A DNA stretch of 64,000 nucleotides from Minisyncoccota bacterium (GTDB taxonomy: Bacteria; Patescibacteriota; Minisyncoccia; Phycocordibacterales; UBA9973), in NCBI GenBank assembly GCA_031413715.1, contig JANOFO010000009.1, forward strand, positions 94,866-158,865. The letters are read 5' to 3'. The notes under the pieces were generated by a model that saw only the letters and a program-made list of their open reading frames with translations, had not been told where the DNA came from and did no database searches. Positions within the stretch are counted from its first letter, which is position 1. The number at the start of each line of letters is the position of its first letter. This document shows, piece after piece, positions 1 to 64,000 of this stretch. The position numbers and the translations under genes are program-made.

Positions 1-94
1 GAAGTGAATACTCATACTGGCAAGAAAATCTGCCAAGATTTGGGTATTCCAATAATAAAGAAAAAATAGTTATGAACTCCGAAACTAGAAATTG

Positions 95-137
95 CCCCGC
101 CTGATATCGCTTGATGCCGAAAGCTATGGCGGGCAGG
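95..137. repeat. GC-rich hairpin element, copy 1. Ends are CCCCGCCTG ... GGCGGGCAGG, which can pair as a CCCGCC/GGCGGG stem.
   Basis: The same terminal motifs recur at 63333..63400, where they are inserted into a tRNA-like sequence. The element is GC-rich in an AT-rich context and lies just upstream of the first Cys-rich gene. Confidence 0.45.
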
Positions 138-50755: not shown

Positions 50756-52099
50756 ATGAATCTAGACTTATCAAAAATCAAACATGTTCATTTTATCGGG
50801 ATCGGCGGGATCGGGATTTCGGCGATTGCACGAATGATGCTTGAGGCCAGCCCGAATGCCGAAGGTGGGCAGGGGAAGTCGGTGAGCGGGCAGGATATGC
50901 AGGACTCGGAAATCATAGAAGAGCTTAGGAAAGCTGGCGCGCAAATTTCTATCGGTCAATCAATTGAAGCTATCCCGCCTGATACGGACTTGATAATCTA
51001 CACTATCGCTATCATCACTCATGCGCCGGAGCTGTATGCAAAGATTGCTGAGCAAGACATACCATTTTATTCGTATCCAGAAATGCTCTCAGTTGTAACA
51101 GAAGATAAATACACTATTGCTATAGCAGGCACACATGGCAAGACGACGACGACAGGCATGATAACCCAGATTCTTCGTGATGCAAAAAAAGATCCGACAG
51201 TTATCATTGGCAGTTTACTGGTAGGAGAGAAGACGAATTTTATTGCGGGGAAGAGTAATATCTTTGTAGTAGAAGCGTGTGAATACCGAAGATCATTTCT
51301 AAATATTAGTCCTAAGATTCTTGTCATTACGAATATCGATGAAGACCATCTTGATTACTATAAAGATATCGAAGATATAAAAAGTGCCTTTCGAGAGCTT
51401 GCGATTAAGGTACCTAGTGATGGTTTTGTAGTTTGCAGCAGGGAAGATGACAATATTTCCGACGTTATAGAAGGTATCAAAGCAAAAATTATAAATTATA
51501 ATGAATTTTTTAATCCTGATATAAAACTAAAAGTTCCAGGACTTCACAATAAGAAAAATGCCGCAGCCGCGTTCGCTGTTGCTTCGATTCTTTCTGTTTC
51601 ATACACAGAGGCAAATACTTCATTATCGGAGTTTCCTGGAACATGGCGTAGGTTTGAATGGAAAAGCAAACTCAAAAATGACGCACTTTTATACGATGAC
51701 TACGCGCATCATCCAAAAGAGATAGTAGCGACTCTACAAGGATTCCGAGAGTTATATCCGCGAGAGGATGACTGGCAGATAACAATTGTGTTTCAACCAC
51801 ATCTATTTAGTCGGACAAAATTATTACTCGATGATTTTGCAAAAAGCTTTGCTGACGCTGACAGCGTGATCGTCCTGCCTATTTACTCAGCGCGTGAAGA
51901 AGATGATGGTACTATCTCCTCGGCTATATTAGCAGAGAAAATAAGTAAGAATAATACACAAGCGCAGGCCTTTAATGACTTTGAAAGTGCAGAAGATTAT
52001 TTGAAAGTAAAATTATCTGGCATGACTGGTAAAGATATAATTGTAACCATGGGTGCTGGCGAGGCTTTCAAAGTAGGGGATAATTTATTAAAAGAATAA
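50756..52099 (+). CDS. murC: UDP-N-acetylmuramate--L-alanine ligase MurC.
   Basis: The N-terminus has HVHFIGIGGIGISAIARMMLE and the P-loop is IAGTHGKTTTT. A GC-rich 11-aa insertion (ASPNAEGGQGK) lies in the N-terminal domain. Confidence 0.85.
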   Translation: MNLDLSKIKHVHFIGIGGIGISAIARMMLEASPNAEGGQGKSVSGQDMQDSEIIEELRKAGAQISIGQSIEAIPPDTDLIIYTIAIITHAPELYAKIAEQDIPFYSYPEMLSVVTEDKYTIAIAGTHGKTTTTGMITQILRDAKKDPTVIIGSLLVGEKTNFIAGKSNIFVVEACEYRRSFLNISPKILVITNIDEDHLDYYKDIEDIKSAFRELAIKVPSDGFVVCSREDDNISDVIEGIKAKIINYNEFFNPDIKLKVPGLHNKKNAAAAFAVASILSVSYTEANTSLSEFPGTWRRFEWKSKLKNDALLYDDYAHHPKEIVATLQGFRELYPREDDWQITIVFQPHLFSRTKLLLDDFAKSFADADSVIVLPIYSAREEDDGTISSAILAEKISKNNTQAQAFNDFESAEDYLKVKLSGMTGKDIIVTMGAGEAFKVGDNLLKE

Positions 52100-52122
52100 T
52101 CGATATGTGATAGAATGTTTAT

Positions 52123-52851
52123 ATGGAAAATAATAATAAATCTAATTGGGGGAATGCTGGGCTTTTAGTGGGAATAGCGCTTATTCTTAGTACTCTTATT
52201 GGGGCATATACTTTCTATCAAATAAGATCTTTTGATAATACTTTGACCGTTACAGGCTCGGCTAGCAAGGCTGTTACTGCTGATCATGTAAAATGGGTAG
52301 GCTCTATAAACCGCGTAGTTAAAGTGACGGGATTAAAAGCTGGATATGCAGAGCTTGCAAGTGATCTTGTAAGCGTAAAGACTTTCTTAAAAAATAACCA
52401 GATCACAGATAACCAGATAGTTATATCTCCAGTATTTATGGATCAGAATTATGATCAGCCTCAAGGAGCAGAACGAAGTTATACGCTCAGGCAAACTATA
52501 GAAATCAATTCTGACAATGTGAATGCTATTGCAGAAGTTGCAAAGAATATCAATCCACTTATAGAAAAGGGAGTAATATTCTCGACTCAATCAGTTGAAT
52601 ACACTTACTCCAAGCTTCCAGAAGAGCGAGTAGCCCTTCTTACCGATGCCATTATTGATGCGAAAGCTCGAGCATCAAAGCTTGCACAATCAAGTGGCAA
52701 GAAAGTTGGCCAACTCAAGAGCGCCTCATCAGGTGTAGTTCAGGTTCTATCTGCAAATTCTCTTGATGTTTCTGATTACGGCTCATACGATACATCTAAA
52801 GTTGAAAAGAATATAATGCTGACAGTCAAAGCTTCGTTTACTCTCAAATAA
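52123..52851 (+). CDS. SIMPL/DUF541-like secreted protein.
   Basis: An N-terminal TM/signal anchor is followed by composition typical of SIMPL-domain proteins. The protein is 242 aa. Confidence 0.45.
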   Translation: MENNNKSNWGNAGLLVGIALILSTLIGAYTFYQIRSFDNTLTVTGSASKAVTADHVKWVGSINRVVKVTGLKAGYAELASDLVSVKTFLKNNQITDNQIVISPVFMDQNYDQPQGAERSYTLRQTIEINSDNVNAIAEVAKNINPLIEKGVIFSTQSVEYTYSKLPEERVALLTDAIIDAKARASKLAQSSGKKVGQLKSASSGVVQVLSANSLDVSDYGSYDTSKVEKNIMLTVKASFTLK

Positions 52852-52854
52852 TAT

Positions 52855-53244
52855 ATGATCAAGTATTTTCTATTCTCACTAATTCTAACTGGTGCTGTTT
52901 TTGCGCCTAGAGTCTTTGGAGCTACTGATACTATACTCTCTAGCGTAGATAAATCGGCGTCCAATATTTTTGCAGTCATTGAGAAGTTCCGAATAGACAC
53001 TCATGAACAAATTACAACCGCGAGGCAAGACACAAAAAAATATCTTGATACATTAGAAAAATCCTCAAATTCTGCAGACGGCAAACCTCTCGATGCAACT
53101 GAAAAGCCTATAACCTATATTAAATTTTTCCTGCTTGCTTTGGCTCTCTTTATCTTTAGTACCCAGATAGTTTTTTACGCAGCCCTACTGCTTCTCTTGT
53201 TTCTAATCCTCCGCTTCATCTATCGTAAAATACGCAATAGATAA
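52855..53244 (+). CDS. Hypothetical secreted/membrane protein.
   Basis: 129-aa ORF with a signal peptide and a C-terminal TM helix. Confidence 0.4.
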   Translation: MIKYFLFSLILTGAVFAPRVFGATDTILSSVDKSASNIFAVIEKFRIDTHEQITTARQDTKKYLDTLEKSSNSADGKPLDATEKPITYIKFFLLALALFIFSTQIVFYAALLLLLFLILRFIYRKIRNR

Positions 53245-53286
53245 AATAGTTTGTCAAACAGACAGCTCTTTTAGTATAATACTCTC

Positions 53287-53556
53287 ATGAAGAGAGTTAT
53301 TTTTGATATTATCCTGATCCTTTCTGTATTTATTATGCCTTGGTGGGTAAGCGCTCTCTTGGCATTGGGAGGGATATTTGTATTCAAACAGTTCTATGAA
53401 TTCATAATCGCAGGAATTATAATGTATTCTCTCTATGCAATACCAGAGGGAAATCGGATGTCATCGCCATTTTGGTTTTCGCTATCGATAAGCTTAATAT
53501 ATATAATAGTTCAATTTTCAAAACGTCACATAATATTATATAAAAATGAAATTTAA
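53287..53556 (+). CDS. Hypothetical small membrane protein.
   Basis: 89-aa ORF with 2-3 TM helices, immediately upstream of the PBP2 gene. Confidence 0.4.
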   Translation: MKRVIFDIILILSVFIMPWWVSALLALGGIFVFKQFYEFIIAGIIMYSLYAIPEGNRMSSPFWFSLSISLIYIIVQFSKRHIILYKNEI

Positions 53557-55243
53557 CTTACGTAAAAAATATAGAATAGATATTGCTCCGGATGAGATAT
53601 TCCTCGATTCAAAGAATTTGCCGAATTTTAATACTCAGCAATTCGAAGGTCGTTTAGAAAGACCGATTCCGAAGCGCTCCATCTTTTTCTTGGGACTATT
53701 TTTTATTTTCACTGCATGTGTATTTACCTGGCAGCTTGGAAGTCTTCAAATTGTCAAAGGTGAAGCATATTATCAGAAAAGCGAAAACAATACGCTCAAC
53801 AAGCAGCCAATATTCGCTGACCGTGGCCTTGTCTATGATCGCAATGATACGTTGCTTGTCTGGAATACGTGGGATAAAAGCGATACCAATAGATTCTCAT
53901 CACCAGAGAGATCATATACGACTCTGCCAGGATTCGGCCTTCTTTTAGGATATGTAAGTCCTCCGACAAAAGATTCATCGGGTAACTATTGGCAAGATAC
54001 GTTTATTGGCAAGGACGGAGTAGAGAAAACTTACAATGATGTGCTTACTGGAGAAAACGGAGTTCGTATTACCGAAACTGATGTTAAGGGCGCAATCCAA
54101 TCCGAGAATACTGTATCTCTACCGAAGGCTGGAGATAATCTCAAGCTTTCTGTCGATGCACGCATCCAGAAAAAAATGTACGAGTCCATATCAAACATGG
54201 CTAAATCTGTATCATTTACTGGTGGGGCTGGAGTGATCATGGATATCAAGACAGGAGAACTCCTTGCTTTGGCAAATTACCCAGAATACAATCCGAACAT
54301 ACTATCGAAAGGAGATGATAAAGAAACCATCAATGGCTATCTCTCCGACAAGCGTAAGGTATTTCTCAATAGGGCCGTTTCCGGCCTCTATACGCCTGGC
54401 TCGATTGTGAAGCCGTTCATCGCGTATGCGGCATTAGTAGAAAATGTAATTTCTCCACTTAAACAAATTCTTGCAAACGGCTCAATCTCTATTCCAAATC
54501 CGTATTTCCCAGATAAGAAATCCATTTTCAAAGATCACGGTTCATTTGGCTATGTAGATATGCGGAAAGCGATCGCTGTCTCATCCGATGTCTATTTTTA
54601 TGAAATCAGTGGAGGTTTCCAGGATCAGAAAGGGCTTGGGATAGTAAATATTGATAAATATTCGAAGCTTTTTGGTATCGCACAAAAGACTGGGATCGAC
54701 CTAGGGGGCGAGAAAGTAGGAACAATTCCGACTCCAGAATGGAAAGCAAAAACATTCAACGGTGATATTTGGCGCGTGGGTGATACTTATAACACGTCTA
54801 TCGGCCAATACGGCTTTCAAACTACACCACTTCAGATGGCTCGTGCTATTGCCGGTATTGCAAATAACGGTTCGCTTCCGACTCCGCATGTGAAACTCGC
54901 TGACAAAGTATTTGCTACTAAAGTGACAACTATTCCTGGTATTAATACAGAGAACATGAATGTTGTCCGTGGTGGTATGCGAGCTGCGGTAACAGAAGGA
55001 ACAGCAACTGCACTTAATTTGCCGCAAGTTGCAGTGGCTGCCAAATCCGGTACTGCGCAAGTGGGAGTCGGGAATACGAATACAAACTCTTGGATTATCG
55101 GTTTCTTTCCTTATGAGAATCCTAAGTACTCATTCGCAGTTCTTATGGAGCGCGGACCGAAAGCTGCCTCTGGTAACGCTACGCAGGTCATGAGTGAAGT
55201 AGTGGACTACATGAGCGTCTATACACCAGAATATCTAAAATAG
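53546..55243 (+). CDS. mrdA: Penicillin-binding protein 2-like D,D-transpeptidase.
   Basis: The SxxK motif is GSIVKP, the SxN motif is SSD and the KTG-like motif is KSGTA. An N-terminal TM anchor and a dimerisation domain are present. Confidence 0.8.
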   Translation: MKFNLRKKYRIDIAPDEIFLDSKNLPNFNTQQFEGRLERPIPKRSIFFLGLFFIFTACVFTWQLGSLQIVKGEAYYQKSENNTLNKQPIFADRGLVYDRNDTLLVWNTWDKSDTNRFSSPERSYTTLPGFGLLLGYVSPPTKDSSGNYWQDTFIGKDGVEKTYNDVLTGENGVRITETDVKGAIQSENTVSLPKAGDNLKLSVDARIQKKMYESISNMAKSVSFTGGAGVIMDIKTGELLALANYPEYNPNILSKGDDKETINGYLSDKRKVFLNRAVSGLYTPGSIVKPFIAYAALVENVISPLKQILANGSISIPNPYFPDKKSIFKDHGSFGYVDMRKAIAVSSDVYFYEISGGFQDQKGLGIVNIDKYSKLFGIAQKTGIDLGGEKVGTIPTPEWKAKTFNGDIWRVGDTYNTSIGQYGFQTTPLQMARAIAGIANNGSLPTPHVKLADKVFATKVTTIPGINTENMNVVRGGMRAAVTEGTATALNLPQVAVAAKSGTAQVGVGNTNTNSWIIGFFPYENPKYSFAVLMERGPKAASGNATQVMSEVVDYMSVYTPEYLK

Positions 55244-55299
55244 TTCTCCTTGATTTTAATTTTTTATGTGTTATGGTTCATATATAAAGCTCTTTATAT

Positions 55300-55875
55300 A
55301 TGAAGATAATCGATCATTACATTTTGAAGAAATTTCAAAAAGTATCGGATTGGTTCCAGTTAACTTTCGGAATAAACAATTTTACCATTGTACGGATTTT
55401 TGTTGTTTTGTTTGCTGCAAGCGGAGTCATTGCTACTGTAATAAAATATGAAGTTAGTTCTCTAAAGGGCATAGATCCTAGCTTTATTTTATTTTTGGTA
55501 GCATATTCATCTGTATTTTTTATTGCATCAGTAATTTTTGAGAAAGTATGTTTAAAAAACCCACAATTTGCTAATCCGCTTAAAGGAATTATGGAGGATT
55601 TAAGATTGTTGAGTTTGGGAATAACATTGTTTGGCCTTGTTGTTACAATAGTATTTTCTATCTTAGTGCCTACAAATGAGGCAAAAACTACGAATGAAAA
55701 CACTACTAACTTTCCAAGTGCTTACAATTTTTATTTCTGGCTCATTATTATTTCTTGGTTTGTAATAATATACTTGATCTCATGCACGCCTAAGCCTCCG
55801 TCCAAAAGTAAATTTAAAAAGTTGTTAGAGGGTCTTCAAGATCTTTCTACGAAAAAGGAATTAGTAAAAATTTAG
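55300..55875 (+). CDS. Hypothetical membrane protein (4 TM).
   Basis: 191-aa ORF. Confidence 0.45.
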   Translation: MKIIDHYILKKFQKVSDWFQLTFGINNFTIVRIFVVLFAASGVIATVIKYEVSSLKGIDPSFILFLVAYSSVFFIASVIFEKVCLKNPQFANPLKGIMEDLRLLSLGITLFGLVVTIVFSILVPTNEAKTTNENTTNFPSAYNFYFWLIIISWFVIIYLISCTPKPPSKSKFKKLLEGLQDLSTKKELVKI

Positions 55876-55957
55876 CTGGAATCTCACGCCCTGCAACAGC
55901 GGGGCGTTTGTTTTTCTCTAAATAGGCTTTGACAAATAGGTTAAAAATCTATATACT

Positions 55958-56431
55958 ATGCCGATTATGGATGAAATACATTATATTACAGAAGAGAAAA
56001 AGCAGTCTTTAATCGAGGAATTGAATAATTTAAAGAATATAAAGCGCAAGGAAATTCTTGAAGCCCTAGATGCTGCAAAAGCTCTTGGCGACCTTTCAGA
56101 GAACGCAGAATACCACCAAGCCCGCGAGGATCAGGGCAAAACCGAGGATCGCATTAATCAGATTGAATACATGCTTCAAGCTGCTGTCGTTGTAAAGAAA
56201 CATCACAGTACAAAAGTAGAAATAGGAACAACTGTAAACGTAAAGAAAGAAGACGGCAAGGAAGTCATCACATACAGCATTGTAGGATCTGAAGAAGCTG
56301 ATATGGCCGTCGGTAAAATTTCCAATAAATCACCACTCGGGGAAGCTCTATTTGGTAAATCAAAAGGAGACAGCGTATCAATAACTACTCCAAAGGGTCT
56401 AGTCAAATACACCATAGTTGAGATACAATAA
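55958..56431 (+). CDS. greA: Transcription elongation factor GreA.
   Basis: An N-terminal coiled coil with the acidic tip (SENAEYHQAREDQ) is followed by a C-terminal FKBP-like domain. The protein is 157 aa. Confidence 0.85.
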   Translation: MPIMDEIHYITEEKKQSLIEELNNLKNIKRKEILEALDAAKALGDLSENAEYHQAREDQGKTEDRINQIEYMLQAAVVVKKHHSTKVEIGTTVNVKKEDGKEVITYSIVGSEEADMAVGKISNKSPLGEALFGKSKGDSVSITTPKGLVKYTIVEIQ

Positions 56432-56436
56432 GGTCT

Positions 56437-57924
56437 ATGGCTTCAATTGAAGAACTCAGATCTGCTCGGATTGCAAAAATAGAAAAGTTGGAAGCATCTG
56501 GTATGAATCCATATCCGGCTTCTTTGTCGCGTACTCATTCAATCGAACAGGTGAAAGACTTGTTTGGTATACTTGCTTCTACTTCTGATATCGAACCTAT
56601 CTCTATAGTCGGTCGTGTCATGATTGTACGTGGCCAAGGCAAGATCTTATTCATCGTTATCCAAGACGGCAAGGATCGCTTGCAGGCAGTGCTCAAGAAA
56701 GACGTACTTTCCGATGAGGTTTTTTCTCTTTTTGTTGATACGGTAGATAATGGAGATTTCATTTCTGTTACTGGATCGCTCTTTGTCACTGACCGCGGAG
56801 AACAAAGCATATTGATCAAAGAATGGCAGATGGGAACCAAAGCACTTCTTCCACTTCCTGACAAATGGCATGGCCTTCAAGATATAGAGGAAACATATCG
56901 AAAAAGGTATTTGGACATAGTCATGGATCACGAGGTTTATGATAGGTTTAGAGTTCGCTCCAATGTCATTAAAGGCATCCGTGCTTTTCTCGACACTAAA
57001 AACTTTTTAGAAATAGAAACACCAATGCTTCAGAATCAGGCTGGGGGCGCGATGGCGAAAGTTTTTGAAACATACCACAACGATTATGATATGCCAATGG
57101 TGCTCCGTATTGCTGTAGAGCTTGACCACAAAATGATTATGGTAGGCGGCTATGAGCGTATTTATGAAATAGGTAAAATGTTCCGTAATGAAGGCTCTGA
57201 TCCGACTCATATACAAGAGTTTACGATGATAGAGTGGTATGCAGCGTACCAGACACTCGAGACCAATATGGCCTGGACAGAAGATATGCTCAAACACATT
57301 GCCCGCGATATAGTCGGTAAAATGACTTTTACAGTTTATGACAAAGAAGGTCAAAGCCAAGATGTCGATTTCGACGGTGTATGGCCGCATGTTTCTTTCG
57401 GACAATTGCTTTCCCAAGATGCTGGCATAGATATAGCTACGATAACTCTTGAGGATGCACGGACACATGCAATAAAGTGGGGGATGCTTGAAGAAGAAGC
57501 AAAAATTACCGGCCGCGGCAATCTTCTTGATTATATATACAAAAAGTCTTCTCGCTCAAAAATTATCGACCCTACATTCGTGACAAACTTCCCAGGTGAT
57601 TTGAAGCCTCTTGCCCAACAAAATCCTGATGGTACTGCACAAGTTGCTCAGCTTATCATTGCCGGAGCAGAAATTACGAATCAGTATGCGGAACTAGTAG
57701 ACCCGACTGTTCAGCGAGCACTTCTTTCTGCTCAATCGAAAGCAAAAGAAGGTGGAGATATTGAGGCGATGGAAATCGACGAGCGTTTTTTAACTGCAAT
57801 GGAACACGGAATGCCACCGATGACAGGATTTGGTATGGGAATTGATCGACTCGTAGCAATACTTACGAATCAAAAAAATTGCAGAGATGTAATCTTCTTC
57901 CCGATAATGAAGCCAAGAGAATAA
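56437..57924 (+). CDS. lysS: Lysyl-tRNA synthetase (class II).
   Basis: The N-terminus is an OB-fold. Class II motif 2 is FRNEGSDPTHIQEFTMIEWY and motif 3 is GFGMGIDRLVAILT. Confidence 0.9.
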   Translation: MASIEELRSARIAKIEKLEASGMNPYPASLSRTHSIEQVKDLFGILASTSDIEPISIVGRVMIVRGQGKILFIVIQDGKDRLQAVLKKDVLSDEVFSLFVDTVDNGDFISVTGSLFVTDRGEQSILIKEWQMGTKALLPLPDKWHGLQDIEETYRKRYLDIVMDHEVYDRFRVRSNVIKGIRAFLDTKNFLEIETPMLQNQAGGAMAKVFETYHNDYDMPMVLRIAVELDHKMIMVGGYERIYEIGKMFRNEGSDPTHIQEFTMIEWYAAYQTLETNMAWTEDMLKHIARDIVGKMTFTVYDKEGQSQDVDFDGVWPHVSFGQLLSQDAGIDIATITLEDARTHAIKWGMLEEEAKITGRGNLLDYIYKKSSRSKIIDPTFVTNFPGDLKPLAQQNPDGTAQVAQLIIAGAEITNQYAELVDPTVQRALLSAQSKAKEGGDIEAMEIDERFLTAMEHGMPPMTGFGMGIDRLVAILTNQKNCRDVIFFPIMKPRE

Positions 57925-57939
57925 TCTTGTAAATAAAAA

Positions 57940-57975
57940 ACCGCCAACATTGAAAAGATCGTATGGCGGTTTTGC
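57940..57975 (+). terminator. Rho-independent terminator after lysS.
   Basis: The sequence is AAAAAACCGCCA...TGGCGGTTTTG. Confidence 0.7.
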
Positions 57976-58102
57976 TCTTCCTAAAAGGGTCCCATAGGTA
58001 TCCTTTTTCTCACTTAATTCTAAAGAGCACTCATTGTTTAAAATTATATAATATTTTATTAAAAAGTCAAATATCTCTATTTTTTTGTTATCCACAGTTT
58101 GG

Positions 58103-58168
58103 GTGGGGAAGGGTGTTTGTGTTGTGGGATAAAGTGGTTTATAATTAACTGAAGTGGGATGAAGTGGG
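58103..58168 (+). promoter_or_regulatory. MraZ operator-like array of GTGGG direct repeats at 10-bp periodicity, upstream of mraZ. A TATAAT-like hexamer is embedded.
   Basis: GTGGG begins at 58103, 58124, 58134 (GTGG), 58154 and 58164, each with a 5-nt spacer. This matches the described MraZ binding-site architecture (TGGGN repeats). Confidence 0.6.
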
Positions 58169-58272
58169 TGGCATATTTTTAAGGAGAAAACGACTATAAA
58201 AATAGCCAGGCAGATGTATTCATCTGCAGCCAAGAAGATATTAATTTCTCTCACTAAAATAAGAAATAATTT

Positions 58273-58707
58273 ATGTTGATCGGAGAATATACACATACAC
58301 TCGACGACAAGAATCGCATGTCACTGCCAGTAAAATTCCGAAAAGAAATGGGGAAGAGTGTTGTTGTTGCTCCGGGGTTGGATAAGTGTCTTTCTATATT
58401 CACCGTAAAAGAATGGGAGAAGATATCAAGCAAGCTTTCTGACTCATCCATGATCGCAAGTGACAACAGAAGTTTCTCGAGATTTATATTTGGTCAGGCT
58501 GTCGCACTCGATGTGGACACCCAAGGCCGAATACTGATCCCGGAGAATTTGAAAAATCGTTCAGGATTATCTACAAAAGTGATAGTCATCGGAGTGCAGA
58601 ACAGAGCAGAAATCTGGAACGAGAAAACATGGAATGACTACAAGAAGATGGTAGACACACAGGCAGACGCCCTCGCAGATAAATTGGGGCAGATAGGAGT
58701 TCTTTAA
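58273..58707 (+). CDS. mraZ: Transcriptional regulator MraZ.
   Basis: The N-terminus is MLIGEYTHTLDDKNRMSLPVKFR. A second DxxxR module is present. Confidence 0.9.
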   Translation: MLIGEYTHTLDDKNRMSLPVKFRKEMGKSVVVAPGLDKCLSIFTVKEWEKISSKLSDSSMIASDNRSFSRFIFGQAVALDVDTQGRILIPENLKNRSGLSTKVIVIGVQNRAEIWNEKTWNDYKKMVDTQADALADKLGQIGVL

Positions 58708-58715
58708 TAAATAAT

Positions 58716-59606
58716 ATGCATATTTCTGTATTACGCGATGAATCAATAGACGGACTTATGATCCGATCAGGCGATATCATCGTCGACGGTACGCTCGGTG
58801 GCGGAGGTCACACATTTGAGATATTGAGACGTTTTGGTTCGGGCGTGAAGCTCATCTGTCTTGATCTTGATAAAGATGCTATTGATCGCGCAAAAGTTTT
58901 GATTGGGGAACTTCCTCATGATGCAAGCTTTCACACGATCGGCTTCCAAGATTTAGACAAAGTCTTGGCCGAGCTCAATATTCCTCATGTTGATCGGATA
59001 CTGCTTGATCTTGGAATAAGTTCATTCCAACTTGAAGAAGCAGGTAGAGGATTCTCATTCTTAAAAGATGAACCGCTTCTGATGACGATGAAAAAGAACC
59101 CGAGTGCAAGCGATCTGACAGCAGTCGACATTGTGAATACTTGGGATGAGAAGACACTCGCCGATATAATCTACGGTTTTGGTGAAGAGAAATACTCTCG
59201 CAAGATCGCCAAAGCAATCATCTTGGCACGAAAAGAAAAAAAGATAGAGACTACATTCGACTTGGTGAGCATTATCGATAACGCAGTAGGGAAGTCTTAC
59301 CGAGGAATGAAAATTCACCCCAGCACTCGCACCTTCCAAGCTCTTCGTATAGCGACTAACAGTGAACTTACTAATCTAGAGGCTGTTATAGAAAAGGGTT
59401 TTAGTAAACTTTCAATAAACGGCAGGATGGCCATCATCACATTCCATAGTCTAGAAGACCGGATAGTCAAAAGAGCCTTTGTTGCTCTTAAACAAAAAGG
59501 ATATGCAAAAATTATTACCAAAAAACCAATAATACCCGCGAGTGACGAAATCCGATCCAATCCACGAGCTCGCTCAAGCAAATTGAGAATAATAGAAAAA
59601 ATATAA
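58716..59606 (+). CDS. rsmH: 16S rRNA (cytosine1402-N4)-methyltransferase RsmH.
   Basis: The SAM-binding motif is IVDGTLGGGGHT. The protein is 296 aa. Confidence 0.9.
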   Translation: MHISVLRDESIDGLMIRSGDIIVDGTLGGGGHTFEILRRFGSGVKLICLDLDKDAIDRAKVLIGELPHDASFHTIGFQDLDKVLAELNIPHVDRILLDLGISSFQLEEAGRGFSFLKDEPLLMTMKKNPSASDLTAVDIVNTWDEKTLADIIYGFGEEKYSRKIAKAIILARKEKKIETTFDLVSIIDNAVGKSYRGMKIHPSTRTFQALRIATNSELTNLEAVIEKGFSKLSINGRMAIITFHSLEDRIVKRAFVALKQKGYAKIITKKPIIPASDEIRSNPRARSSKLRIIEKI

Positions 59607-59608
59607 AT

Positions 59609-59935
59609 ATGACCAAAGCAAAAGCAATAACCAAAGATATAGTAGAAAACCAAAATACCCAGCGTATTATATTTCGAGTGCTTATCGGCTCGCTTATTAT
59701 GCTCTCTGTGGCGTATGTATATTTAATAGGCTCTATTACATTTAATGTGCTTGCTCGCAAATCCCTAGAAACAAATGCTCGTGAGCTTGGCAGCCGCATC
59801 GGTACCCTCGAGCTTACCTATCTTGCTCGAGCTAACCAAATTGATAAAAACCACGCTACTTTCCTCGGATTTGTCGAGATACATAATAATATCTTTGCTA
59901 CACGAGGTGATTCTACTCGTGTCGCTATCAGATAA
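59609..59935 (+). CDS. ftsL: FtsL-like small bitopic membrane protein (cell division).
   Basis: It is 108 aa with a single TM helix plus a coiled coil, positioned between rsmH and ftsI. Confidence 0.5.
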   Translation: MTKAKAITKDIVENQNTQRIIFRVLIGSLIMLSVAYVYLIGSITFNVLARKSLETNARELGSRIGTLELTYLARANQIDKNHATFLGFVEIHNNIFATRGDSTRVAIR

Positions 59936-61647
59936 TGAAGTCCGGAGCGTTTACATCACGCATTCGAGTCGTCTACACCCTCGTCTCATTTCTTGCCCTC
60001 ATTCTTATCGCGAAGCTTTTTTACGTCCAGGTCTTACATAAAAATCTCTATCTAGAAAGAGCAGACAAGCAGTATGCCACACCCGCTGGTGATATTTTTA
60101 AGCGTGGCTCTATTTTCTTTACAAAGAAAGATGGCTCTTTAGTCGCAGCCGGTACTGTCTCAACAGGATTTAAAGTTGCCCTTAATACTAAAAATATTAC
60201 CGATGCTGAAGCTACGTATCTAGCTCTCAAGCCGTATATCAGTATGGATCACGATACATTCATAACTCATGCTTCTAAGAAAAATGACCCGTACGAAGAA
60301 ATACAACTCCATCTTTCCAAACAACAAGCGGATAAAATCAATACTCTCGATATTGCAGGAGTTGCTATATACAAAGACAATTGGCGTTTCTATCCTGGAG
60401 GTTCACTTGCATCGCAAACACTCGGGTTCCTAGCTTACAAGAACAACGATAGAGTGGGTCAATATGGACTTGAGCGTTTTTATAACGCAACACTTTCTAA
60501 ATCGAAAGATGAAGCCTATGTTAATTTCTTTGCCGAAGTTTTTTCTAATATTCGCGATTCGGTTTCTGGAGCAGGCAGCCAAGGAGATATTGTCACGACG
60601 ATAGAGCCTTCAACTCAACATACACTCGAAGGGGAGCTGTCCTCCGCCTTCACCACTTGGCATGCTGATCAGGCTGGCGGTCTAATCATCAATCCACAGA
60701 CTGGCGAGATATATGCCATCGCAGGATTTCCAAATTTTGATGTGAATGATTTTGGCAGTGTGTCCAATATCGATGTATACCGGAATCCAATCGTAGAGAA
60801 TGTATTTGAATTCGGGTCTGTTATCAAGCCGCTCGTTATGGCCGCAGCGCTTGACATAGGAGCGGTGACTCCTGAGACGACATACGTTGACCATGGATCG
60901 ATAACAGTAAACAAGCACGATATTTACAACTTTGATAAAAAAGCCCGAGGACTTTCTACGATGCAGACAGTTCTCGACCAGTCGCTTAACACAGGTATGG
61001 TCTTCGTCGAAAATAAAATGGGACATGACAATATGCGATCATACATGAAAGCTTACGGCATCGGCGAGAAGACCGGCATAGATCTGCCAAATGAAACTTC
61101 TGGCCTCATAAAGAACCTAGAGAGTCCGCGCGATATAGAATACGCCAACGCTGCTTTCGGACAAGGTATAGCGATGACACCGATCGAAGCAGCGCGCGCA
61201 TTTTCAGCTATTGCAAACGGTGGCAAGCTCATCACCCCGTACTTGGTCAAGCAGATCAGATATGATGATGGACTTTCGAAGGTGGTTAAAGAACCGGTGA
61301 TAACTCGAGAAGACATTATAAAGCCAGAGACATCTAACACAATTTCTCGCATGCTCGTGCATGTATTTGAGGCATATGATAATGGAAAGCATAAATTTGA
61401 GCATTATAGCGTAGCTTCAAAAACGGGAACGGCACAGGTGGCAATGGATAATGGAAAAGGGTATTATGAAGATCGGCACATGCATTCATTCTTTGGATAC
61501 TTCCCGGCATATGATCCAAAGTTTTTGGTTTTCCTTTTTATTAAAAACCCAAAAGGAGCTCAGTATGCTTCTCAAACTTTGATACCTCCGTTTATGAATA
61601 TAACGAAGTTTCTTATGAATTATTATGATGTTCCACCTGATCGCTAG
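59935..61647 (+). CDS. ftsI: Peptidoglycan D,D-transpeptidase FtsI (PBP3-like).
   Basis: The SxxK motif is GSVIKP, the SxN motif is SLNTG and the KTG motif is KTGTAQ. It sits in the dcw position. Confidence 0.85.
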   Translation: MKSGAFTSRIRVVYTLVSFLALILIAKLFYVQVLHKNLYLERADKQYATPAGDIFKRGSIFFTKKDGSLVAAGTVSTGFKVALNTKNITDAEATYLALKPYISMDHDTFITHASKKNDPYEEIQLHLSKQQADKINTLDIAGVAIYKDNWRFYPGGSLASQTLGFLAYKNNDRVGQYGLERFYNATLSKSKDEAYVNFFAEVFSNIRDSVSGAGSQGDIVTTIEPSTQHTLEGELSSAFTTWHADQAGGLIINPQTGEIYAIAGFPNFDVNDFGSVSNIDVYRNPIVENVFEFGSVIKPLVMAAALDIGAVTPETTYVDHGSITVNKHDIYNFDKKARGLSTMQTVLDQSLNTGMVFVENKMGHDNMRSYMKAYGIGEKTGIDLPNETSGLIKNLESPRDIEYANAAFGQGIAMTPIEAARAFSAIANGGKLITPYLVKQIRYDDGLSKVVKEPVITREDIIKPETSNTISRMLVHVFEAYDNGKHKFEHYSVASKTGTAQVAMDNGKGYYEDRHMHSFFGYFPAYDPKFLVFLFIKNPKGAQYASQTLIPPFMNITKFLMNYYDVPPDR

Positions 61648-61650
61648 TCT

Positions 61651-62952
61651 ATGAATAGAAAAAAAATAATTAAAAAAATAATCTACAGCATTCTCATATG
61701 GGAATCAAGGATGGTTCTCTTGCGTCATAAACCAAAGATCATAGCTATTACTGGGTCGGTCGGGAAAACATCTACCAAGGATGCTATCTTTACTGTCCTT
61801 TCTAAATTTAAAAAAGTTCGTAAAAGCGACAAGAGCTATAACAGCATACCTGGTATTCCACTTACCATCCTAGGCATTCCAAATGCTTGGAGTAACAATT
61901 GGCTCTGGATTGAAAATATTATACGCGGATTTATTCTTATGTTTTGGGCAAAAGAATATCCAGAATGGCTTATACTTGAAGTAGGAGCGGGTAAACCAAA
62001 CGACATCAAGGGTATAACTTCGTGGCTATCTCCAGATATTGTCGTTATAACTCGTTTTCCAGACAAGCCAGTACATATCGAATTCTTTGATAATGTGGAT
62101 AGTATTATAGAAGAGAAAAGCGCTCTTGCGCTTGCACTCAAAGCAAACGGTGTCCTTATTCTAAACCACGACGATGAGAAAGTTTATGCTCTACATGGTA
62201 AAGCCAATAGACGCACTGTGTCATATGGCTTCCATGAAAATTCTACATATCACGCTACATACCCATCATATTTGTATGAGAGTAGTCATGACAGCGTGCC
62301 AGTAGGAATCAGTTTTAAGCTTGAACATAGTGGAAACACTTTCCCAGTCATGCTTTCTAATGTTATCGGCATGCATTATGTCGGTTCTTCTCTAGCAGCT
62401 CTTGCAGTTGCTCACGAAGTTGGCTGTGATTTACTTCAATCCATAAATGCAATTGCAGAGTATACGACACCGCCCGGCAGGCTCTCATTGATCGAAGGCA
62501 TCAATAGCTCAATTCTTATAGATGATACTTACAATGCCTCACCAGTAGCAATGGAAGCTGCAATAGTAGTACTCTCTGAAATAAAAGCAAAGCGTAAGAT
62601 TGCAGTTCTTGGCGATATGCTAGAGCTTGGTAGAATGACAGAGGAAACCCATCGTGAAATAGGTGAGAAAGTAACTACGGTTACTGATATTCTTGTGACT
62701 GTGGGGCCTCGCGCGAAATTCATTGCAGATGGGGCCATAGATCAAGGATTCTCCAAAAGTAAAATTCAAATGTTTGACACTGCAGTTCAAGCGTCAGAAT
62801 ATTTGAAGGGAATAGTAAAGAAAGGGGATCTGGTGCTACTTAAAGGTTCTCAAGGTATAAGGCTAGAGCGTGCTGTAGAAGCGATAATGGCGCACCCTGA
62901 GCTCCGCACTAAGATCCTCGCCCGTCAGGAAAAAGAGTGGAAAAATAGGTAG
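61651..62952 (+). CDS. murF: UDP-N-acetylmuramoyl-tripeptide--D-alanyl-D-alanine ligase MurF.
   Basis: The P-loop is IIAITGSVGKTSTK. The DDTYNASP motif is present. Confidence 0.85.
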   Translation: MNRKKIIKKIIYSILIWESRMVLLRHKPKIIAITGSVGKTSTKDAIFTVLSKFKKVRKSDKSYNSIPGIPLTILGIPNAWSNNWLWIENIIRGFILMFWAKEYPEWLILEVGAGKPNDIKGITSWLSPDIVVITRFPDKPVHIEFFDNVDSIIEEKSALALALKANGVLILNHDDEKVYALHGKANRRTVSYGFHENSTYHATYPSYLYESSHDSVPVGISFKLEHSGNTFPVMLSNVIGMHYVGSSLAALAVAHEVGCDLLQSINAIAEYTTPPGRLSLIEGINSSILIDDTYNASPVAMEAAIVVLSEIKAKRKIAVLGDMLELGRMTEETHREIGEKVTTVTDILVTVGPRAKFIADGAIDQGFSKSKIQMFDTAVQASEYLKGIVKKGDLVLLKGSQGIRLERAVEAIMAHPELRTKILARQEKEWKNR

Positions 62953-62963
62953 GAATTGATTGA

Positions 62964-62991
62964 TTGACATATTCTACTGATTCTATATAAT
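62964..62991 (+). promoter_or_regulatory. Sigma-70-like promoter (TTGACA, 16-nt spacer, TATAAT) upstream of a small ORF.
   Basis: The sequence is TTGACATATTCTACTGATTCTATATAAT, with consensus hexamers. Confidence 0.5.
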
Positions 62992-63045
62992 ATCAAAATA
63001 TTTGACCTTTTTATTTCATTCATCTTTTAATTAAAAGCAACAATT

Positions 63046-63225
63046 ATGAGAAGTGATCCCACACAAACAGGTACAAGGAAACTAAATCCTAAAACCGTGC
63101 TCAAAATTTTAAAAGGTAAGAATTTTGATGAGCAATCCGATCTCCTTTATGAAAATGGAGCTCATCTTAATCCTTACCAATTAGAAAAAGCACAAGCAAT
63201 GCTTTCGAAAAAGAATCGAACCTAA
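63046..63225 (+). CDS. Hypothetical small protein (59 aa).
   Basis: It has a consensus promoter upstream and a hairpin terminator (GGCGCC...GGCGC) downstream. Confidence 0.35.
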   Translation: MRSDPTQTGTRKLNPKTVLKILKGKNFDEQSDLLYENGAHLNPYQLEKAQAMLSKKNRT

Positions 63226-63320
63226 AACCCAAAAAAAGATTACAGGCGCCCTACAAGGCGCTTTCGTTTTTGATTTTTTACCCAAAAATGCTATATTTCC
63301 ATTGTTAATTTAATAAACTT

Positions 63321-63421
63321 GGCCCCATCGTCCCCGCCTGCTCCCGACCTTGCCAGCTAACTCAGAATGAGGGCAGGCTGGGTACGCGAGGGCGGGCAGG
63401 TAACGGTTAGGACATCGCCTT
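63321..63421 (+). pseudogene. Disrupted duplicate of the tRNA-Glu 5' portion, with a 68-nt GC-rich hairpin element inserted in the D-arm.
   Basis: 63321..63332 equals tRNA-Glu nt 1-12 and 63401..63421 equals tRNA-Glu nt 13-33. The sequence then diverges, and no T-arm or acceptor 3' strand follows. The insert at 63333..63400 has the same termini (CCCCGCCTG...GGCGGGCAGG) as the element at 95..137. Confidence 0.6.
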
Positions 63422-63521
63422 TGAGAGGTTGAAATTTGGGAAGGTGAAGTTGGGGAGGGTCCCAACTGCAAGGCCGGAGTGCGACGGCACGAATCGAACT
63501 TTTAAATTTAATAGGCAACTT

Positions 63522-63593
63522 GGCCCCATCGTCTAACGGTTAGGACATCGCCTTCTCAAGGCGGTAATCAGAGTTCGATTCTCTGTGGGGTCA
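63522..63593 (+). tRNA. tRNA-Glu (anticodon CTC).
   Basis: The sequence is GGCCCCATCGTCTAACGGTTAGGACATCGCCTTCTCAAGGCGGTAATCAGAGTTCGATTCTCTGTGGGGTCA. Confidence 0.85.
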
Positions 63594-63642
63594 CACATAC
63601 TTAAAAAGACTAGACTGCTCTAGTCTTTTTAAGTATGTGTGA
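63591..63642. repeat. 24-bp perfect inverted repeat with a 4-nt loop, overlapping the last 3 nt of tRNA-Glu.
   Basis: The sequence is TCACACATACTTAAAAAGACTAGA CTGC TCTAGTCTTTTTAAGTATGTGTGA. Confidence 0.7.
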
Positions 63643-64000
63643 AAGCGCAGGTATAGTGCAAAGCACTACCGAGCTGGGGTCGCGAGTACTTATGTAGAAT
63701 TTGAGCGTAGCGATAAATTATACTTAGTAACTTGTGATCACTTAAAATTAGAATGCGAAGCATACAACAATTAGTTTATCAAATCCATGCTATCTATTTG
63801 CATCTTATGGATTAATTCTTCTTATAGGGCAAGTTATTTCTTAGTATCAAAAAAATTAATTTATACATCAGTATAGCGATGGACTTATAGACAGGCTTAT
63901 CGCAAACTTTAAAAAAGAGCATGACCTAGATATATCTAGGGAGACTGCGAATGAATATTTAGATTCCTTTGCAGGACTCTTCTTAGCTTTTGCAACGAAC

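What the first reader, a model, noticed from the sequence alone, without database searches (positions are those of the whole stretch)
63318..63642. tRNA-Glu locus: an upstream disrupted duplicate carrying a GC-rich hairpin element, and a 24-bp perfect palindrome fused to the tRNA 3' end
A partial direct duplication precedes the intact tRNA-Glu (63522..63593), and it includes a few upstream nucleotides. In the upstream copy, tRNA nt 1-12 and 13-33 are separated by a 68-nt GC-rich insert (63333..63400) and the 3' half is missing. The insert ends (CCCCGCCTG...GGCGGGCAGG) are the same as those of a 43-nt element at 95..137 in front of the Cys-rich gene pair, so this looks like a small mobile hairpin element family. 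Immediately after the intact tRNA there is a 24-bp perfect inverted repeat (63591..63642) whose left arm begins inside the tRNA acceptor 3' strand. That is far longer and more perfect than a normal terminator, and it could be a recombination or attachment site. The window ends about 350 nt later, so an integrated element may lie just beyond it.
Basis: seen in the sequence. Interest (0 to 1): 0.55.

Follow-up and report, generated by a model that had tools for sequence, protein, structure and literature searches.

The report
Invaded tRNA-Glu gene with hairpin repeats
The odd half-copy of tRNA-Glu, its GC-rich hairpin and the long palindrome recur at tRNA-Glu genes in many Patescibacteria, where small selfish DNA insertions, often carrying a tiny GIY-YIG nuclease gene, split the gene and supply a replacement copy.

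Summary
None is peculiar to this genome. Among 94 related tRNA-Glu loci with enough upstream sequence, 30 carry a promoter-proximal partial 5' copy of the tRNA. A GC-rich hairpin with the conserved basal stem CCYGCCWG/CRGGCWGG sits between tRNA nt 12 and 13 in at least 12 loci. Twelve related loci have an ~80-aa GIY-YIG nuclease ORF between the hairpin-bearing fragment and the intact tRNA. This window is an ORF-less relative. Its 68-nt insert is two nested hairpins of that family. Locus L034 has the same leader with an empty site.

The 24-bp palindrome is the extreme case of a conserved helix that pairs the tRNA 3' end (UCAC) with GUGA. That helix is at least 8 bp in 26 of 94 loci, with 20 different arm sequences. 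It encloses a terminator-like hairpin and abuts a covariation-supported structured RNA of about 100 nt that is absent from Rfam.

Best reading: a nest of selfish DNA insertions that regenerate the tRNA, most like endonuclease-ORF insertions and hairpin repeats in fungal mitochondria. The mobile-hairpin idea is supported. The attachment-site idea is not supported, and what lies beyond base 64000 could not be checked. Function at the RNA level remains open.

The parts
63244..63273 (+). Terminator-like hairpin ending the preceding small ORF (63046-63225). It marks the start of the tRNA-Glu transcription unit.
   Evidence: 7-bp stem, 5 GC pairs, T-run
63270..63297 (+). Promoter-like site TTGATT-16-(TG)cTATATT.
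   Evidence: The same TTG...TGnTATAnT motif lies just before the tRNA in loci without an upstream fragment, and just before the fragment in loci that have one.
63302..63320 (+). AT-rich leader, copy 1. It is repeated at 63500-63521.
   Evidence: repeat families D2 and D3
63321..63332 (+). Displaced copy of tRNA-Glu nt 1-12 (GGCCCCATCGTC).
   Evidence: Not recognised as a tRNA by ARAGORN or Rfam.
63333..63400 (+). 68-nt GC-rich composite hairpin inserted between tRNA nt 12 and 13. The core hairpin is 63333-63347 plus 63382-63400, with basal stem CCCGCCUG/CGGGCAGG (one C-A mismatch and one U-G pair). A second hairpin of the same family (CCTTGCCAGC...GCAGGCTGG, 63348-63381) is nested in its loop.
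   Evidence: The same 34-nt core, uninterrupted, sits at the same site in L037, L106, L107 and L109. L034 has the site empty.
63401..63421 (+). Displaced copy of tRNA-Glu nt 13-33.
63422..63499 (+). GC-rich spacer, a mosaic of several pieces. It has a 45-nt insertion with hairpin 63449-63466, then a degenerate anticodon-stem 3' strand at 63467-63477. Positions 63473-63492 are identical to a hairpin of the downstream RNA unit of L056. GAATCGAAC at 63491-63499 is complementary to the tRNA T-loop.
   Evidence: (inverted repeat I6). Homologous longer leaders occur in L034, L101 and L016.
63500..63521 (+). AT-rich leader, copy 2, immediately before the intact tRNA.
63522..63594 (+). Intact tRNA-Glu(CTC). 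CCA is not encoded.
   Evidence: An identical tRNA is found in L034, L048, L068 and L084.
63591..63642 (+). 24-bp perfect palindrome. The outer helix pairs the tRNA 3' end and trailer (UCAC+ACAUAC) with GUAUGU+GUGA. The inner part (63603-63630) is a terminator-like hairpin with an A-tract, a 7-bp stem and a T-tract.
63639..63741 (+). Conserved structured RNA domain (GUGAA...GUGAUCAC) with two long arms. No Rfam family matches it.
   Evidence: On 7 sequences, 37 pairs are 96.9% paired against 82.8% in shuffles, and 18 pairs change on both sides. G-U pairs fall on the + strand.
63751..63765 (+). Small conserved hairpin GAAUGCGAAGCAUAC that follows the domain in many relatives.
96..137 (+). Second copy of the hairpin family in this window (same basal stem, different apical part). 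It ends 10 nt before the ATG of gene 148-1845.

Best explanation
The locus is an ORF-less member of a widespread family of insertions that invade tRNA-Glu genes of Patescibacteria and keep the tRNA working by supplying a replacement copy.

Shown:
- The promoter-proximal segment 63321-63421 sits where the 5' part of a tRNA-Glu gene normally lies relative to the promoter. It is followed, after inserted DNA, by a complete tRNA-Glu(CTC).
- The displaced copy carries two nested members of a GC-rich hairpin repeat family, inserted precisely between nt 12 and 13 with no target duplication.
- In at least 12 related loci the same position holds the same kind of hairpin, and the inserted DNA encodes an ~80-aa GIY-YIG nuclease. 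That ORF runs into the tRNA and stops at the TAG of the tRNA D-loop.

Inferred:
- The cassettes spread as homing-endonuclease-type or gene-conversion insertions that carry a duplicated part of their target.
- The disruption in the displaced D-arm keeps the two repeats from being re-cut or recombined.
- The long leader is transcribed from the old promoter and removed by RNase P.
- The 24-bp palindrome is not part of that insertion. It is the local version of a conserved helix that pairs the tRNA 3' end with the start of a conserved structured trailing RNA and encloses a terminator-like hairpin. It most likely acts in termination or processing of the tRNA-Glu transcript.
For: - 5' fragments occur upstream of 30 of 94 related tRNA-Glu loci, split evenly between the two anticodons (CTC 16/49, TTC 14/45).
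- The promoter motif lies directly before the fragment where one exists, and directly before the tRNA where none does.
- The hairpin family has about 22 copies in 842 kb against about 0.2 expected. Twelve are at nt 12|13. Others are at 5|6, 10|11, 22|23 and 34|35 of tRNA-Glu sequence, or nested, tandem, or outside tRNA sequence.
- L034 has the window's leader without the insert.
- A GIY-YIG ORF (Pfam PF01541, E 9e-17) lies between the hairpin-bearing fragment and the intact tRNA in L014, L037, L045, L071, L072, L106, L107, L109 and L110-L113.
- 74-76 of the top 120 homologue clusters end in a tail (ALSSNG* or GPIV*) encoded by tRNA-Glu nt 1-22.
- In L109 the split outer tRNA (GGCTCTA.../...TAGAGTC) differs in sequence from the inner tRNA (GGCCTTA...). 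The inner copy was therefore brought in, not duplicated locally. Removing the two identical hairpins restores normal tRNA sequence.
- Palindrome: the UCAC/GUGA helix is at least 8 bp in 26 of 94 loci, with 20 distinct arms.
- Trailing RNA: covariation, and a fixed distance from the tRNA on the tRNA strand only.
- Published analogues: endonuclease ORF insertions with duplicated gene termini (PMC3630166) and repetitive hairpin-forming elements in AT-rich mitochondrial genomes (PMC2800124).
Against: - The window has no nuclease ORF, and its spacer has no detectable ORF remnant. Its displaced fragment (nt 1-33 plus remnant) is longer than in the nuclease-bearing loci (nt 1-21/26), so it is not a simple ORF deletion.
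- No cleavage activity or target site is known for these ~80-aa nucleases, which lack a DNA-binding domain.
- The hairpin core is 100% conserved where neighbouring third codon positions are 56-72% identical. A common hairpin-free upstream variant (GGCCCTATCGTCTAACCAAGTTAGAATATAGCGGACATCGCC, 17 loci) is also conserved while its spacers are not. Both facts fit selection on a functional RNA or protein-binding site at least as well as selfish spread.
- Equilibrium folding predicts that the leader competes with the tRNA's own 5' strand, which could mean regulation rather than inert scar.
Confidence: 0.55

Rival explanations
1. The tRNA-like leader and its GC hairpin are a functional cis-acting RNA. 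Possible roles are a protein-binding or stabilising 5' element, or a competitor for the tRNA 3' half that tunes tRNA-Glu maturation and, in relatives, nuclease translation. This does not exclude a mobile origin.
For: - The 34-nt hairpin core is identical across loci whose adjacent ORFs have diverged.
- The basal stem, with its C-A mismatch and U-G pair, is conserved while apical parts vary.
- The hairpin always lies near the 5' end of the transcript. The copy at 96-137 ends 10 nt before a start codon.
- A 42-nt hairpin-free upstream variant is conserved in 17 loci while its spacers are not.
- Folding of the whole precursor pairs the tRNA 3' acceptor strand with the upstream copy (P 0.97), and pairs the T-arm with GAATCGAAC at 63491-63499.
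Against: - Two thirds of related tRNA-Glu loci lack any such leader.
- Acceptor-strand bases of the upstream copy drift in several loci (L051, L053, L060, L076).
- The loop of the anticodon-like hairpin does not covary with the tRNA anticodon.
- Deleting the 68-nt insert does not change the predicted competition.
- Equilibrium folding of tRNAs is unreliable.
Confidence: 0.25
2. The partial tRNA copies and the palindrome are scars of integrase-mediated integration and excision at a tRNA attachment site, with an island lying beyond base 64000.
For: - Fragment boundaries fall in the anticodon loop and T-loop.
- Direct 3' fragments lie 150-190 nt after the tRNA in 11 relatives, and L056 has a 24-nt direct repeat.
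- Genes downstream of tRNA-Glu vary between relatives and include defence-like ATPases, a TIR protein and a serine-recombinase remnant.
- The Logan contig breaks at 63681.
Against: - The window duplicates the 5' part, not the 3' part.
- The DNA between repeats is only about 100-250 nt.
- No integrase, transposase or reverse transcriptase recurs within 4 kb of 98 loci.
- The tRNA core, the upstream variant and the trailing RNA have no match in 2.9 million viral contigs.
- The palindrome arms covary like a structural helix.
Confidence: 0.1
3. The hairpins are true tRNA introns removed at the RNA level, and the interrupted copy is, or recently was, a functional multi-intron tRNA-Glu gene.
For: - Precise removal of the hairpin restores tRNA sequence at nt 12|13 and at 34|35, giving anticodon CTC in L109.
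- The position is the same in many species whatever lies further downstream.
Against: - Every hairpin-bearing copy seen is truncated or split and is followed by an intact tRNA-Glu. This includes all 4 hits of a metagenome scan that did not require an intact tRNA.
- No bulge-helix-bulge motif is seen at the junctions (by inspection).
- No group I intron match in Rfam.
- The same hairpins occur outside tRNA sequence.
Confidence: 0.04

Closest known systems
Mobile endonuclease ORFs (mORFs, free-standing homing endonuclease genes) that insert into fungal mitochondrial genes and carry a duplicated gene terminus (Allomyces atp6; Glomus atp6, atp9, cox2, nad3; PMC3630166)
   Same: A GIY-YIG or LAGLIDADG ORF is inserted in a host gene. 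The insert brings a replacement copy of part of the gene, so function is kept. The native part is left as a nearby remnant. In L109 the inserted and native copies differ in sequence, as in those hybrid genes.
   Different: The host is a bacterial chromosome and the target is a tRNA gene. The 5' part (or a whole tRNA) is replaced rather than a protein C-terminus. The nuclease is only about 80 aa. The window itself has no ORF. No cleavage has been shown.
Repetitive hairpin-forming elements, GC clusters and double-hairpin elements of AT-rich mitochondrial genomes (PMC2800124). From my own knowledge also bacterial REP elements and Rickettsia palindromic elements.
   Same: Short GC-rich hairpins in an AT-rich compact genome. 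They are multi-copy, nested or tandem, present or absent at orthologous sites, and found inside RNA-gene sequence as well as between genes.
   Different: Here there is a strong preference for one position of one tRNA (nt 12|13 of tRNA-Glu) and a link to a nuclease cassette. Copy number per genome is unknown. No associated transposase was seen.
Phage T4 SegB, a free-standing GIY-YIG homing endonuclease in the tRNA gene cluster (titles and abstracts of PMC2988022 and PMC13096335; details from my own knowledge)
   Same: A GIY-YIG nuclease gene embedded among tRNA genes, whose spread is tied to tRNA gene DNA.
   Different: SegB is a larger phage protein with a DNA-binding part. No tRNA fragment duplication or hairpin is described. 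No phage match was found here.
Integrative elements that target tRNA genes and duplicate the attachment core (my own knowledge)
   Same: Partial tRNA copies in direct orientation, with boundaries in the anticodon loop and T-loop.
   Different: Those duplicate the 3' part, enclose kilobases of DNA and encode an integrase. None of this is seen in the window.
Archaeal tRNA genes with several introns, or split tRNA genes (my own knowledge)
   Same: Insertions at the D-arm, anticodon loop and T-loop of a tRNA gene. Clean restoration of tRNA sequence on removal.
   Different: No bulge-helix-bulge junctions. The interrupted copies are incomplete. The organism is a bacterium.

Membership tests
tRNA (Rfam RF00005 / ARAGORN) | Cloverleaf scoring above the family threshold | tested here: met
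   The intact copy 63522-63593 scores 59.4 bits against a threshold of 29 and is called by ARAGORN.
tRNA (Rfam RF00005 / ARAGORN) | The upstream copy 63321-63499 is itself a tRNA gene | tested here: not met
   No tRNA match at E <= 10 and no ARAGORN call. It has no T-arm or acceptor 3' strand.
Free-standing homing-endonuclease cassette with duplicated target part | Endonuclease ORF inside the insertion | tested here: not met
   The window has no ORF and no remnant. The feature is met in 12 related loci.
Free-standing homing-endonuclease cassette with duplicated target part | A duplicated portion of the target gene flanks the insert, and an intact gene is regenerated | tested here: met
   The promoter position supports the upstream copy being the native one.
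Free-standing homing-endonuclease cassette with duplicated target part | Site-specific cleavage of the empty allele, and presence/absence among strains | not testable with these tools
   About two thirds of related loci are empty, but no enzyme assay or strain-level comparison was possible.
Repetitive hairpin-forming element (REP- or RHE-like) | Several copies sharing sequence, beyond chance | tested here: met
   2 loci in the window with 0.00 expected. About 22 copies in 842 kb against about 0.2 in shuffles.
Repetitive hairpin-forming element (REP- or RHE-like) | Stable hairpin fold | tested here: met
   -35.2 kcal/mol for the 68-mer, -18.0 for the 34-nt core, -14.8 for the copy at 96-137.
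Repetitive hairpin-forming element (REP- or RHE-like) | Filled and empty orthologous sites, and insertion without target duplication | tested here: met
   L034 is empty where the window is filled. Precise restoration of tRNA sequence at 12|13 and 34|35.
Repetitive hairpin-forming element (REP- or RHE-like) | High copy number across the genome, or a cognate transposase | not testable with these tools
   Only 64 kb of this genome is available. No transposase was seen near related loci.
Integrase attachment site at a tRNA gene | A direct repeat of the tRNA 3' part bounding an element that encodes an integrase | tested here: not met
   The window has no second 3' fragment and no integrase. None recurs in 98 loci. 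Sequence beyond 64000 was not available.
Intrinsic (Rho-independent) terminator | GC-rich stem followed by a T-run | tested here: inconclusive
   The inner hairpin 63603-63630 has an A5 tract, a 7-bp stem (3 GC pairs) and a T5 tract. The consensus scan did not list it. Relatives have the same A-tract, stem and T-tract layout.
Group I intron or archaeal-type tRNA intron | Match to the Rfam Intron_gpI model, or a bulge-helix-bulge motif at the junctions with complete exons | tested here: not met
   No Intron_gpI match at permissive thresholds. The junctions are a plain helix base. The exon set is incomplete.
Any Rfam 15 family (for the trailing RNA 63639-63741 and for the leader) | Covariance-model match | tested here: not met
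   There are only microRNA-like chance matches to the palindrome, all far below their gathering scores.

The most novel reading that the evidence does not exclude
The ~80-aa GIY-YIG nuclease and the GC hairpin together form an undescribed bacterial homing system specific for tRNA-Glu genes. It would insert at D-stem nt 12|13 and keep the essential tRNA alive by carrying a replacement 5' part or a whole tRNA. The hairpin would serve as the nuclease's recognition or immunity element. Nuclease translation would be tied to tRNA processing, because the ORF's only stop codon is the TAG inside the tRNA D-loop, so RNase P cleavage would leave a non-stop mRNA. The window would be a decayed, ORF-less copy of this system next to a new tRNA-linked structured RNA.
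Probability: 0.25. Interest if true: 0.8.

Novelty: new variant of a known kind. Interest (0 to 1): 0.62.

Why it matters
Patescibacteria have tiny genomes with little spare DNA, yet an essential tRNA gene is repeatedly split and rebuilt by small insertions. If the mechanism holds, it extends a mode of selfish-gene spread known from fungal mitochondria and phages to bacterial chromosomal tRNA genes. In that mode, an endonuclease ORF carries a replacement piece of its target, accompanied by GC-rich hairpin repeats. It would also give a minimal ~80-aa nuclease with a presumably defined target.

There are practical consequences too. tRNA finders and gene callers mis-annotate these loci: ORFs are extended into the tRNA and pseudo-halves are ignored. 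The fixed hairpin and the trailing structured RNA are candidates for new RNA families.

Tried and rejected
1. Spacer 63422-63521 and the longer leaders of L034, L101 and L016 as decayed GIY-YIG genes. Profile scores were no better than shuffles and tblastn found nothing.
2. Group I intron, self-cleaving ribozymes, RNase P, SRP, tmRNA, 6S, Y RNA or 5S for the leader or the trailing RNA. No Rfam match at permissive thresholds in the window, L034 or L056. Resemblances to 5S and RNase P seen by eye were not borne out.
3. A T-box-like or kissing-loop sensor. GAA/GAG in the upstream hairpin loops does not track the CTC or TTC anticodon of the adjacent tRNA.
4. The hairpin as an insulator that stops the leader mispairing with the tRNA. 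Deleting it in silico changes nothing.
5. Phage origin. The tRNA core, the upstream variant and the trailing-RNA core have no exact match in the viral contig collection.
6. A linked integrase, transposase or reverse transcriptase. Clustering of 933 neighbouring ORFs gave only housekeeping families.
7. The trailing RNA as a minus-strand gene sharing a bidirectional terminator. G-U pairs lie on the + strand and the core motif occurs only on the tRNA strand.
8. A primer-binding-site-like complement of mature tRNA-Glu-CCA in downstream units. The complement follows the genomic trailer, not CCA.
9. Similar features at the other five tRNAs of the window. None were found.
10. Reaching sequence beyond base 64000. 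The only contig retrieved ends at 63681, and this genome was not among the 98 loci found by the genome scan.
Full report
**Setting.** The window is about 38% GC. It encodes a cell-wall and division gene cluster: mraZ, rsmH, a penicillin-binding protein, and murF at 61651-62952. The closest MurF relatives (74-75% identity) come from Patescibacteria, labelled Paceibacterota or Nomurabacteria. After murF come a 59-aa ORF, a terminator-like hairpin (63244-63273) and a promoter-like site (63270-63297). The region of the finding follows.

- ARAGORN and Rfam place one tRNA-Glu(CTC) at 63522-63593/4.
- Two exact direct repeats reproduce tRNA nt -5..12 and nt 13-33 upstream. They are separated by a 68-nt, 69% GC segment. 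The AT-rich leader is repeated as well.
- The 68-mer folds at -35.2 kcal/mol. Its termini recur at 96-137, where 0.00 matches are expected by chance.
- The inverted repeat 63591-63642 has 24-nt perfect arms with a 4-nt loop, and its folding z-score is -10.3.
- A Logan assembly from another read set is identical over 51651-63681.
- None of the other five tRNAs in the window shows such features.
- Rfam recognises nothing here except the tRNA.

**The architecture recurs.** A scan of one genome per species with the 44-nt tRNA core returned 98 loci, all Patescibacteria, with both CTC and TTC anticodons. In 30 of 94 loci with enough upstream sequence, a partial copy of the tRNA 5' part lies within about 320 nt upstream, always in direct orientation (CTC 16/49, TTC 14/45). 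Where there is no fragment, the local promoter motif (TTG...TGnTATAnT) lies 8-25 nt before the tRNA. Where there is a fragment, the motif lies before the fragment. The upstream copy therefore occupies the place of the original gene start, and the intact tRNA has been moved downstream by inserted DNA. The fragments fall into four forms.
- A common 42-nt variant with an enlarged D-loop and no GC hairpin, found in 17 loci.
- A longer leader like the window's (L034, L101, L016).
- Fragments followed by an ORF.
- Several one-off forms.

L034 has the window's leader, including the same continuation TTTGARAGGTTGAA..., but nt 12 and 13 are contiguous there. It is an empty site for the 68-nt insert.

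**The hairpin.**
- A 34-nt version of the window's insert (CCCGCCTGCTCCCGAGTACGCGAGGGCGGGCAGG) sits at the same nt 12|13 junction in L037, L106, L107 and L109. L108 has a 36-nt variant and L072 a 61-nt version.
- The window and L072 have a second hairpin (basal stem CCTGCCAGC/GCAGGCTGG) nested in the loop of the first, at slightly different points. That second type stands alone at nt 12|13 in L112 and L113, at 5|6 in L045 and at 22|23 in L111.
- All share the basal stem CCYGCCWG/CRGGCWGG. I counted about 22 distinct copies in 842 kb, against about 0.2 in composition-preserving shuffles.
- Twelve copies are at nt 12|13 and four at other tRNA-Glu positions. Others are nested or tandem, and three or four lie outside tRNA sequence (window 96-137, L094, L084).
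- Other GC hairpins of different sequence occupy the same 12|13 or 13|14 site in L014, L019, L071, L075, L101, L016 and L017. A double hairpin of L016 and L081 recurs elsewhere in L081, once inside another tRNA-Glu fragment at 35|36.
- In L037, L106 and L107 the 34-nt core is identical, although the adjacent ORFs are only 73-77% identical (third codon positions 58-67%).

**The nuclease cassette.**
- In L014, L037, L045, L071 and L072, an ORF of about 80 aa lies between the hairpin-bearing fragment (tRNA nt 1-21/26) and the intact tRNA. It is a GIY-YIG catalytic domain (PF01541, E 9e-17). Its reading frame continues into the tRNA and stops at the TAG of the D-loop.
- A metagenome scan for the hairpin/tRNA junction did not require an intact tRNA. 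It gave four contigs. Three have the same ORF. The fourth has a non-coding insert and an intact tRNA.
- A protein search found 154 homologues. 74-76 of the top 120 cluster representatives end in ALSSNG* or GPIV*, which are translations of tRNA-Glu nt 1-22.
- Four homologue contexts chosen for long contigs (L110-L113) all read promoter, tRNA nt 1-12, about 35-nt hairpin, nt 13-25, ORF, intact tRNA-Glu.
- In L109 the interrupted outer gene has acceptor strands GGCTCTA/TAGAGTC, while the inner tRNA has GGCCTTA/TAAGGTC. The inner gene was therefore imported. The outer gene carries the identical hairpin at 12|13 and between C34 and T35, and removing both restores normal sequence and the anticodon CTC.

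**How the window fits.**
- The window has the promoter, nt 1-12, the composite hairpin and nt 13-33.
- These are followed by a 45-nt insertion and a degenerate anticodon-stem 3' strand.
- Next comes a stretch identical to a hairpin of the L056 downstream unit, then an anti-T-loop nonamer.
- A second copy of the leader and the intact tRNA complete the locus.

It has no ORF and no detectable ORF remnant. I therefore file it as an ORF-less relative of the nuclease cassettes, not as a proven derivative.

**The palindrome.**
- In 26 of 94 loci, the four bases UCAC at the tRNA 3' end and the following bases pair contiguously (at least 8 bp) with a downstream segment ending in GUGA. There are 20 different arm sequences, so the helix is kept while its sequence changes.
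- Inside the helix lies a hairpin with an A-tract, a short GC stem and a T-tract, the layout of a bidirectional intrinsic terminator. In most relatives an internal loop separates the two parts.
- In the window and in L082 the two parts merge into one perfect helix of 24 or 23 bp.
- The consensus terminator scan did not list this hairpin, so a termination role is an inference.

**The trailing RNA.**
- GUGA begins a conserved domain (window 63639-63741). Its core motif, GAG(C/U)(U/C)(C)GGGG(U/C)(C/U)G, lies 149-171 nt from the tRNA start in about 20 loci, only on the tRNA strand, and occurs once in the 64-kb window.
- For the window-type class (7 sequences), RNAalifold gives 37 pairs, 18 of them with changes on both sides. 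They are 96.9% paired, against 82.8% in column shuffles and about 40% when the pairing partner is shifted by 1-3 columns.
- A 3-bp helix at the junction appears as AGC/GCU, GAC/GUC and GGC/GCC in the aligned set, and by eye as ACC/GGU, GCC/GGC and GUC/GGC in L077, L056 and L016.
- In L015 and L085 another tRNA follows directly, so the domain is part of a tRNA operon.
- No Rfam family matches. Its function is unknown.
- A third class of these units starts with a complement of the tRNA T-arm and acceptor 3' strand and ends with a direct copy of the tRNA 3' end. This occurs in 11 loci, and L056 has a 24-nt direct repeat. It is the 3'-side counterpart of the 5' duplication.

**Mechanism.**
- Shown: the recurrence, the fixed hairpin position, filled and empty sites, the nuclease ORF and its overlap with the tRNA, the foreign inner tRNA of L109, and the covarying helix and trailing RNA.
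- Inferred: that the cassettes spread by endonuclease-triggered gene conversion; that D-arm disruption of the displaced copy (by a hairpin, an enlarged D-loop or a small deletion) prevents re-cleavage or repeat recombination; and that RNase P frees the tRNA from the long leader.
- Published parallels exist. Endonuclease ORFs in fungal mitochondrial genes bring a replacement gene terminus and leave the native one as a remnant (PMC3630166). GC-rich hairpin repeats populate AT-rich mitochondrial genomes, including RNA genes (PMC2800124).
- The main rival is an RNA-level function. The strict conservation of the hairpin core and of the hairpin-free upstream variant supports it. So does a thermodynamic prediction that the upstream acceptor strand and the anti-T-loop segment capture the tRNA 3' half (P 0.97 against about 0 for the native acceptor). 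The two readings are compatible with each other.
- The integrase-scar and intron readings are weaker.

**Verdict.** The mobile-hairpin interpretation is supported and extended. The attachment-site interpretation is not supported. The finding is a new variant of known kinds of selfish insertion, in an unexpected host and target. It comes with an unexplained tRNA-linked structured RNA.

Noticed in passing
window 41249-41368 (+), immediately after tRNA-Phe 41169-41242: A 39-aa ORF (MSCYVYMIKSLIGKHYYVGISENVACRLERHNIEYKNKD) reads as the N-terminal part of a GIY-YIG domain. It looks like a truncated relative of the tRNA-linked nucleases, next to a different tRNA. No tRNA-Phe fragment duplication was seen.
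   Followed up: partly
window 63639-63741 and 63751-63765: A conserved structured RNA domain and a small hairpin directly after the palindrome. Both are covariation-supported, absent from Rfam, and found after tRNA-Glu in about 20-26 related loci. Function unknown.
   Followed up: partly
window 96-137: A hairpin of the same family ends 10 nt before the ATG of a 565-aa protein with weak treble-clef zinc-finger matches. Its 3' arm (GGCAGG) lies where a ribosome-binding site would be. Whether orthologous genes in relatives have it was not checked.
   Followed up: no
L109 3839-4300 (ERZ1292629, Hainich groundwater) compared with L107: An outer tRNA-Glu is split by a GIY-YIG ORF plus a different inner tRNA-Glu and carries two identical hairpins. 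The sister contig L107 has the same upstream part, but a palindrome and a partly deleted trailing RNA downstream. This suggests strain-level variation within one aquifer.
   Followed up: partly
proteins P0121-P0240: Most database entries for this GIY-YIG family are called with a C-terminal tail (ALSSNG, ASSSNG or GPIV) that is really the first 22 nt of tRNA-Glu. A few others end in tails that look like other tRNAs (for example ...GSSVG).
   Followed up: partly
L056 887-1093; also L022, L032, L050, L053, L054, L072, L077, L078, L101: Units of about 150-200 nt after tRNA-Glu begin with a complement of the tRNA T-arm and acceptor 3' strand and end with a direct copy of the tRNA 3' end. In L056 they are flanked by a 24-nt direct repeat. 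Some are tandem or chimeric.
   Followed up: partly
L081 +439 and +1838 relative to the tRNA; L016 -209: A double GC hairpin (TCCGCCNNNNGGCGGA TCCTCCTGCGGGAGGA) occurs at tRNA nt 13|14 in L016. It also occurs at other places in L081, once inside a further tRNA-Glu fragment at 35|36.
   Followed up: partly
L001 end = window 63681: The independent Logan contig stops inside the trailing RNA domain (…GAGCTGGGGTC). This may reflect strain variation or a repeat at that point.
   Followed up: no
L002-L004, L005, L006 (downstream of murF in relatives): The closest MurF relative (L002) has no tRNA-Glu after murF. Other relatives have it, followed by variable genes: an OLD-like ATPase-nuclease, a TIR-domain protein and a serine-recombinase remnant. 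The murF/tRNA-Glu flank appears to be a variable region.
   Followed up: partly
window 63212-63221 and 63491-63500: Two 10-nt stretches complementary to the tRNA-Glu T-loop region (AGAATCGAAC and GAATCGAACT). The first lies at the end of the small ORF 63046-63225. In folding predictions the second captures the T-arm.
   Followed up: partly
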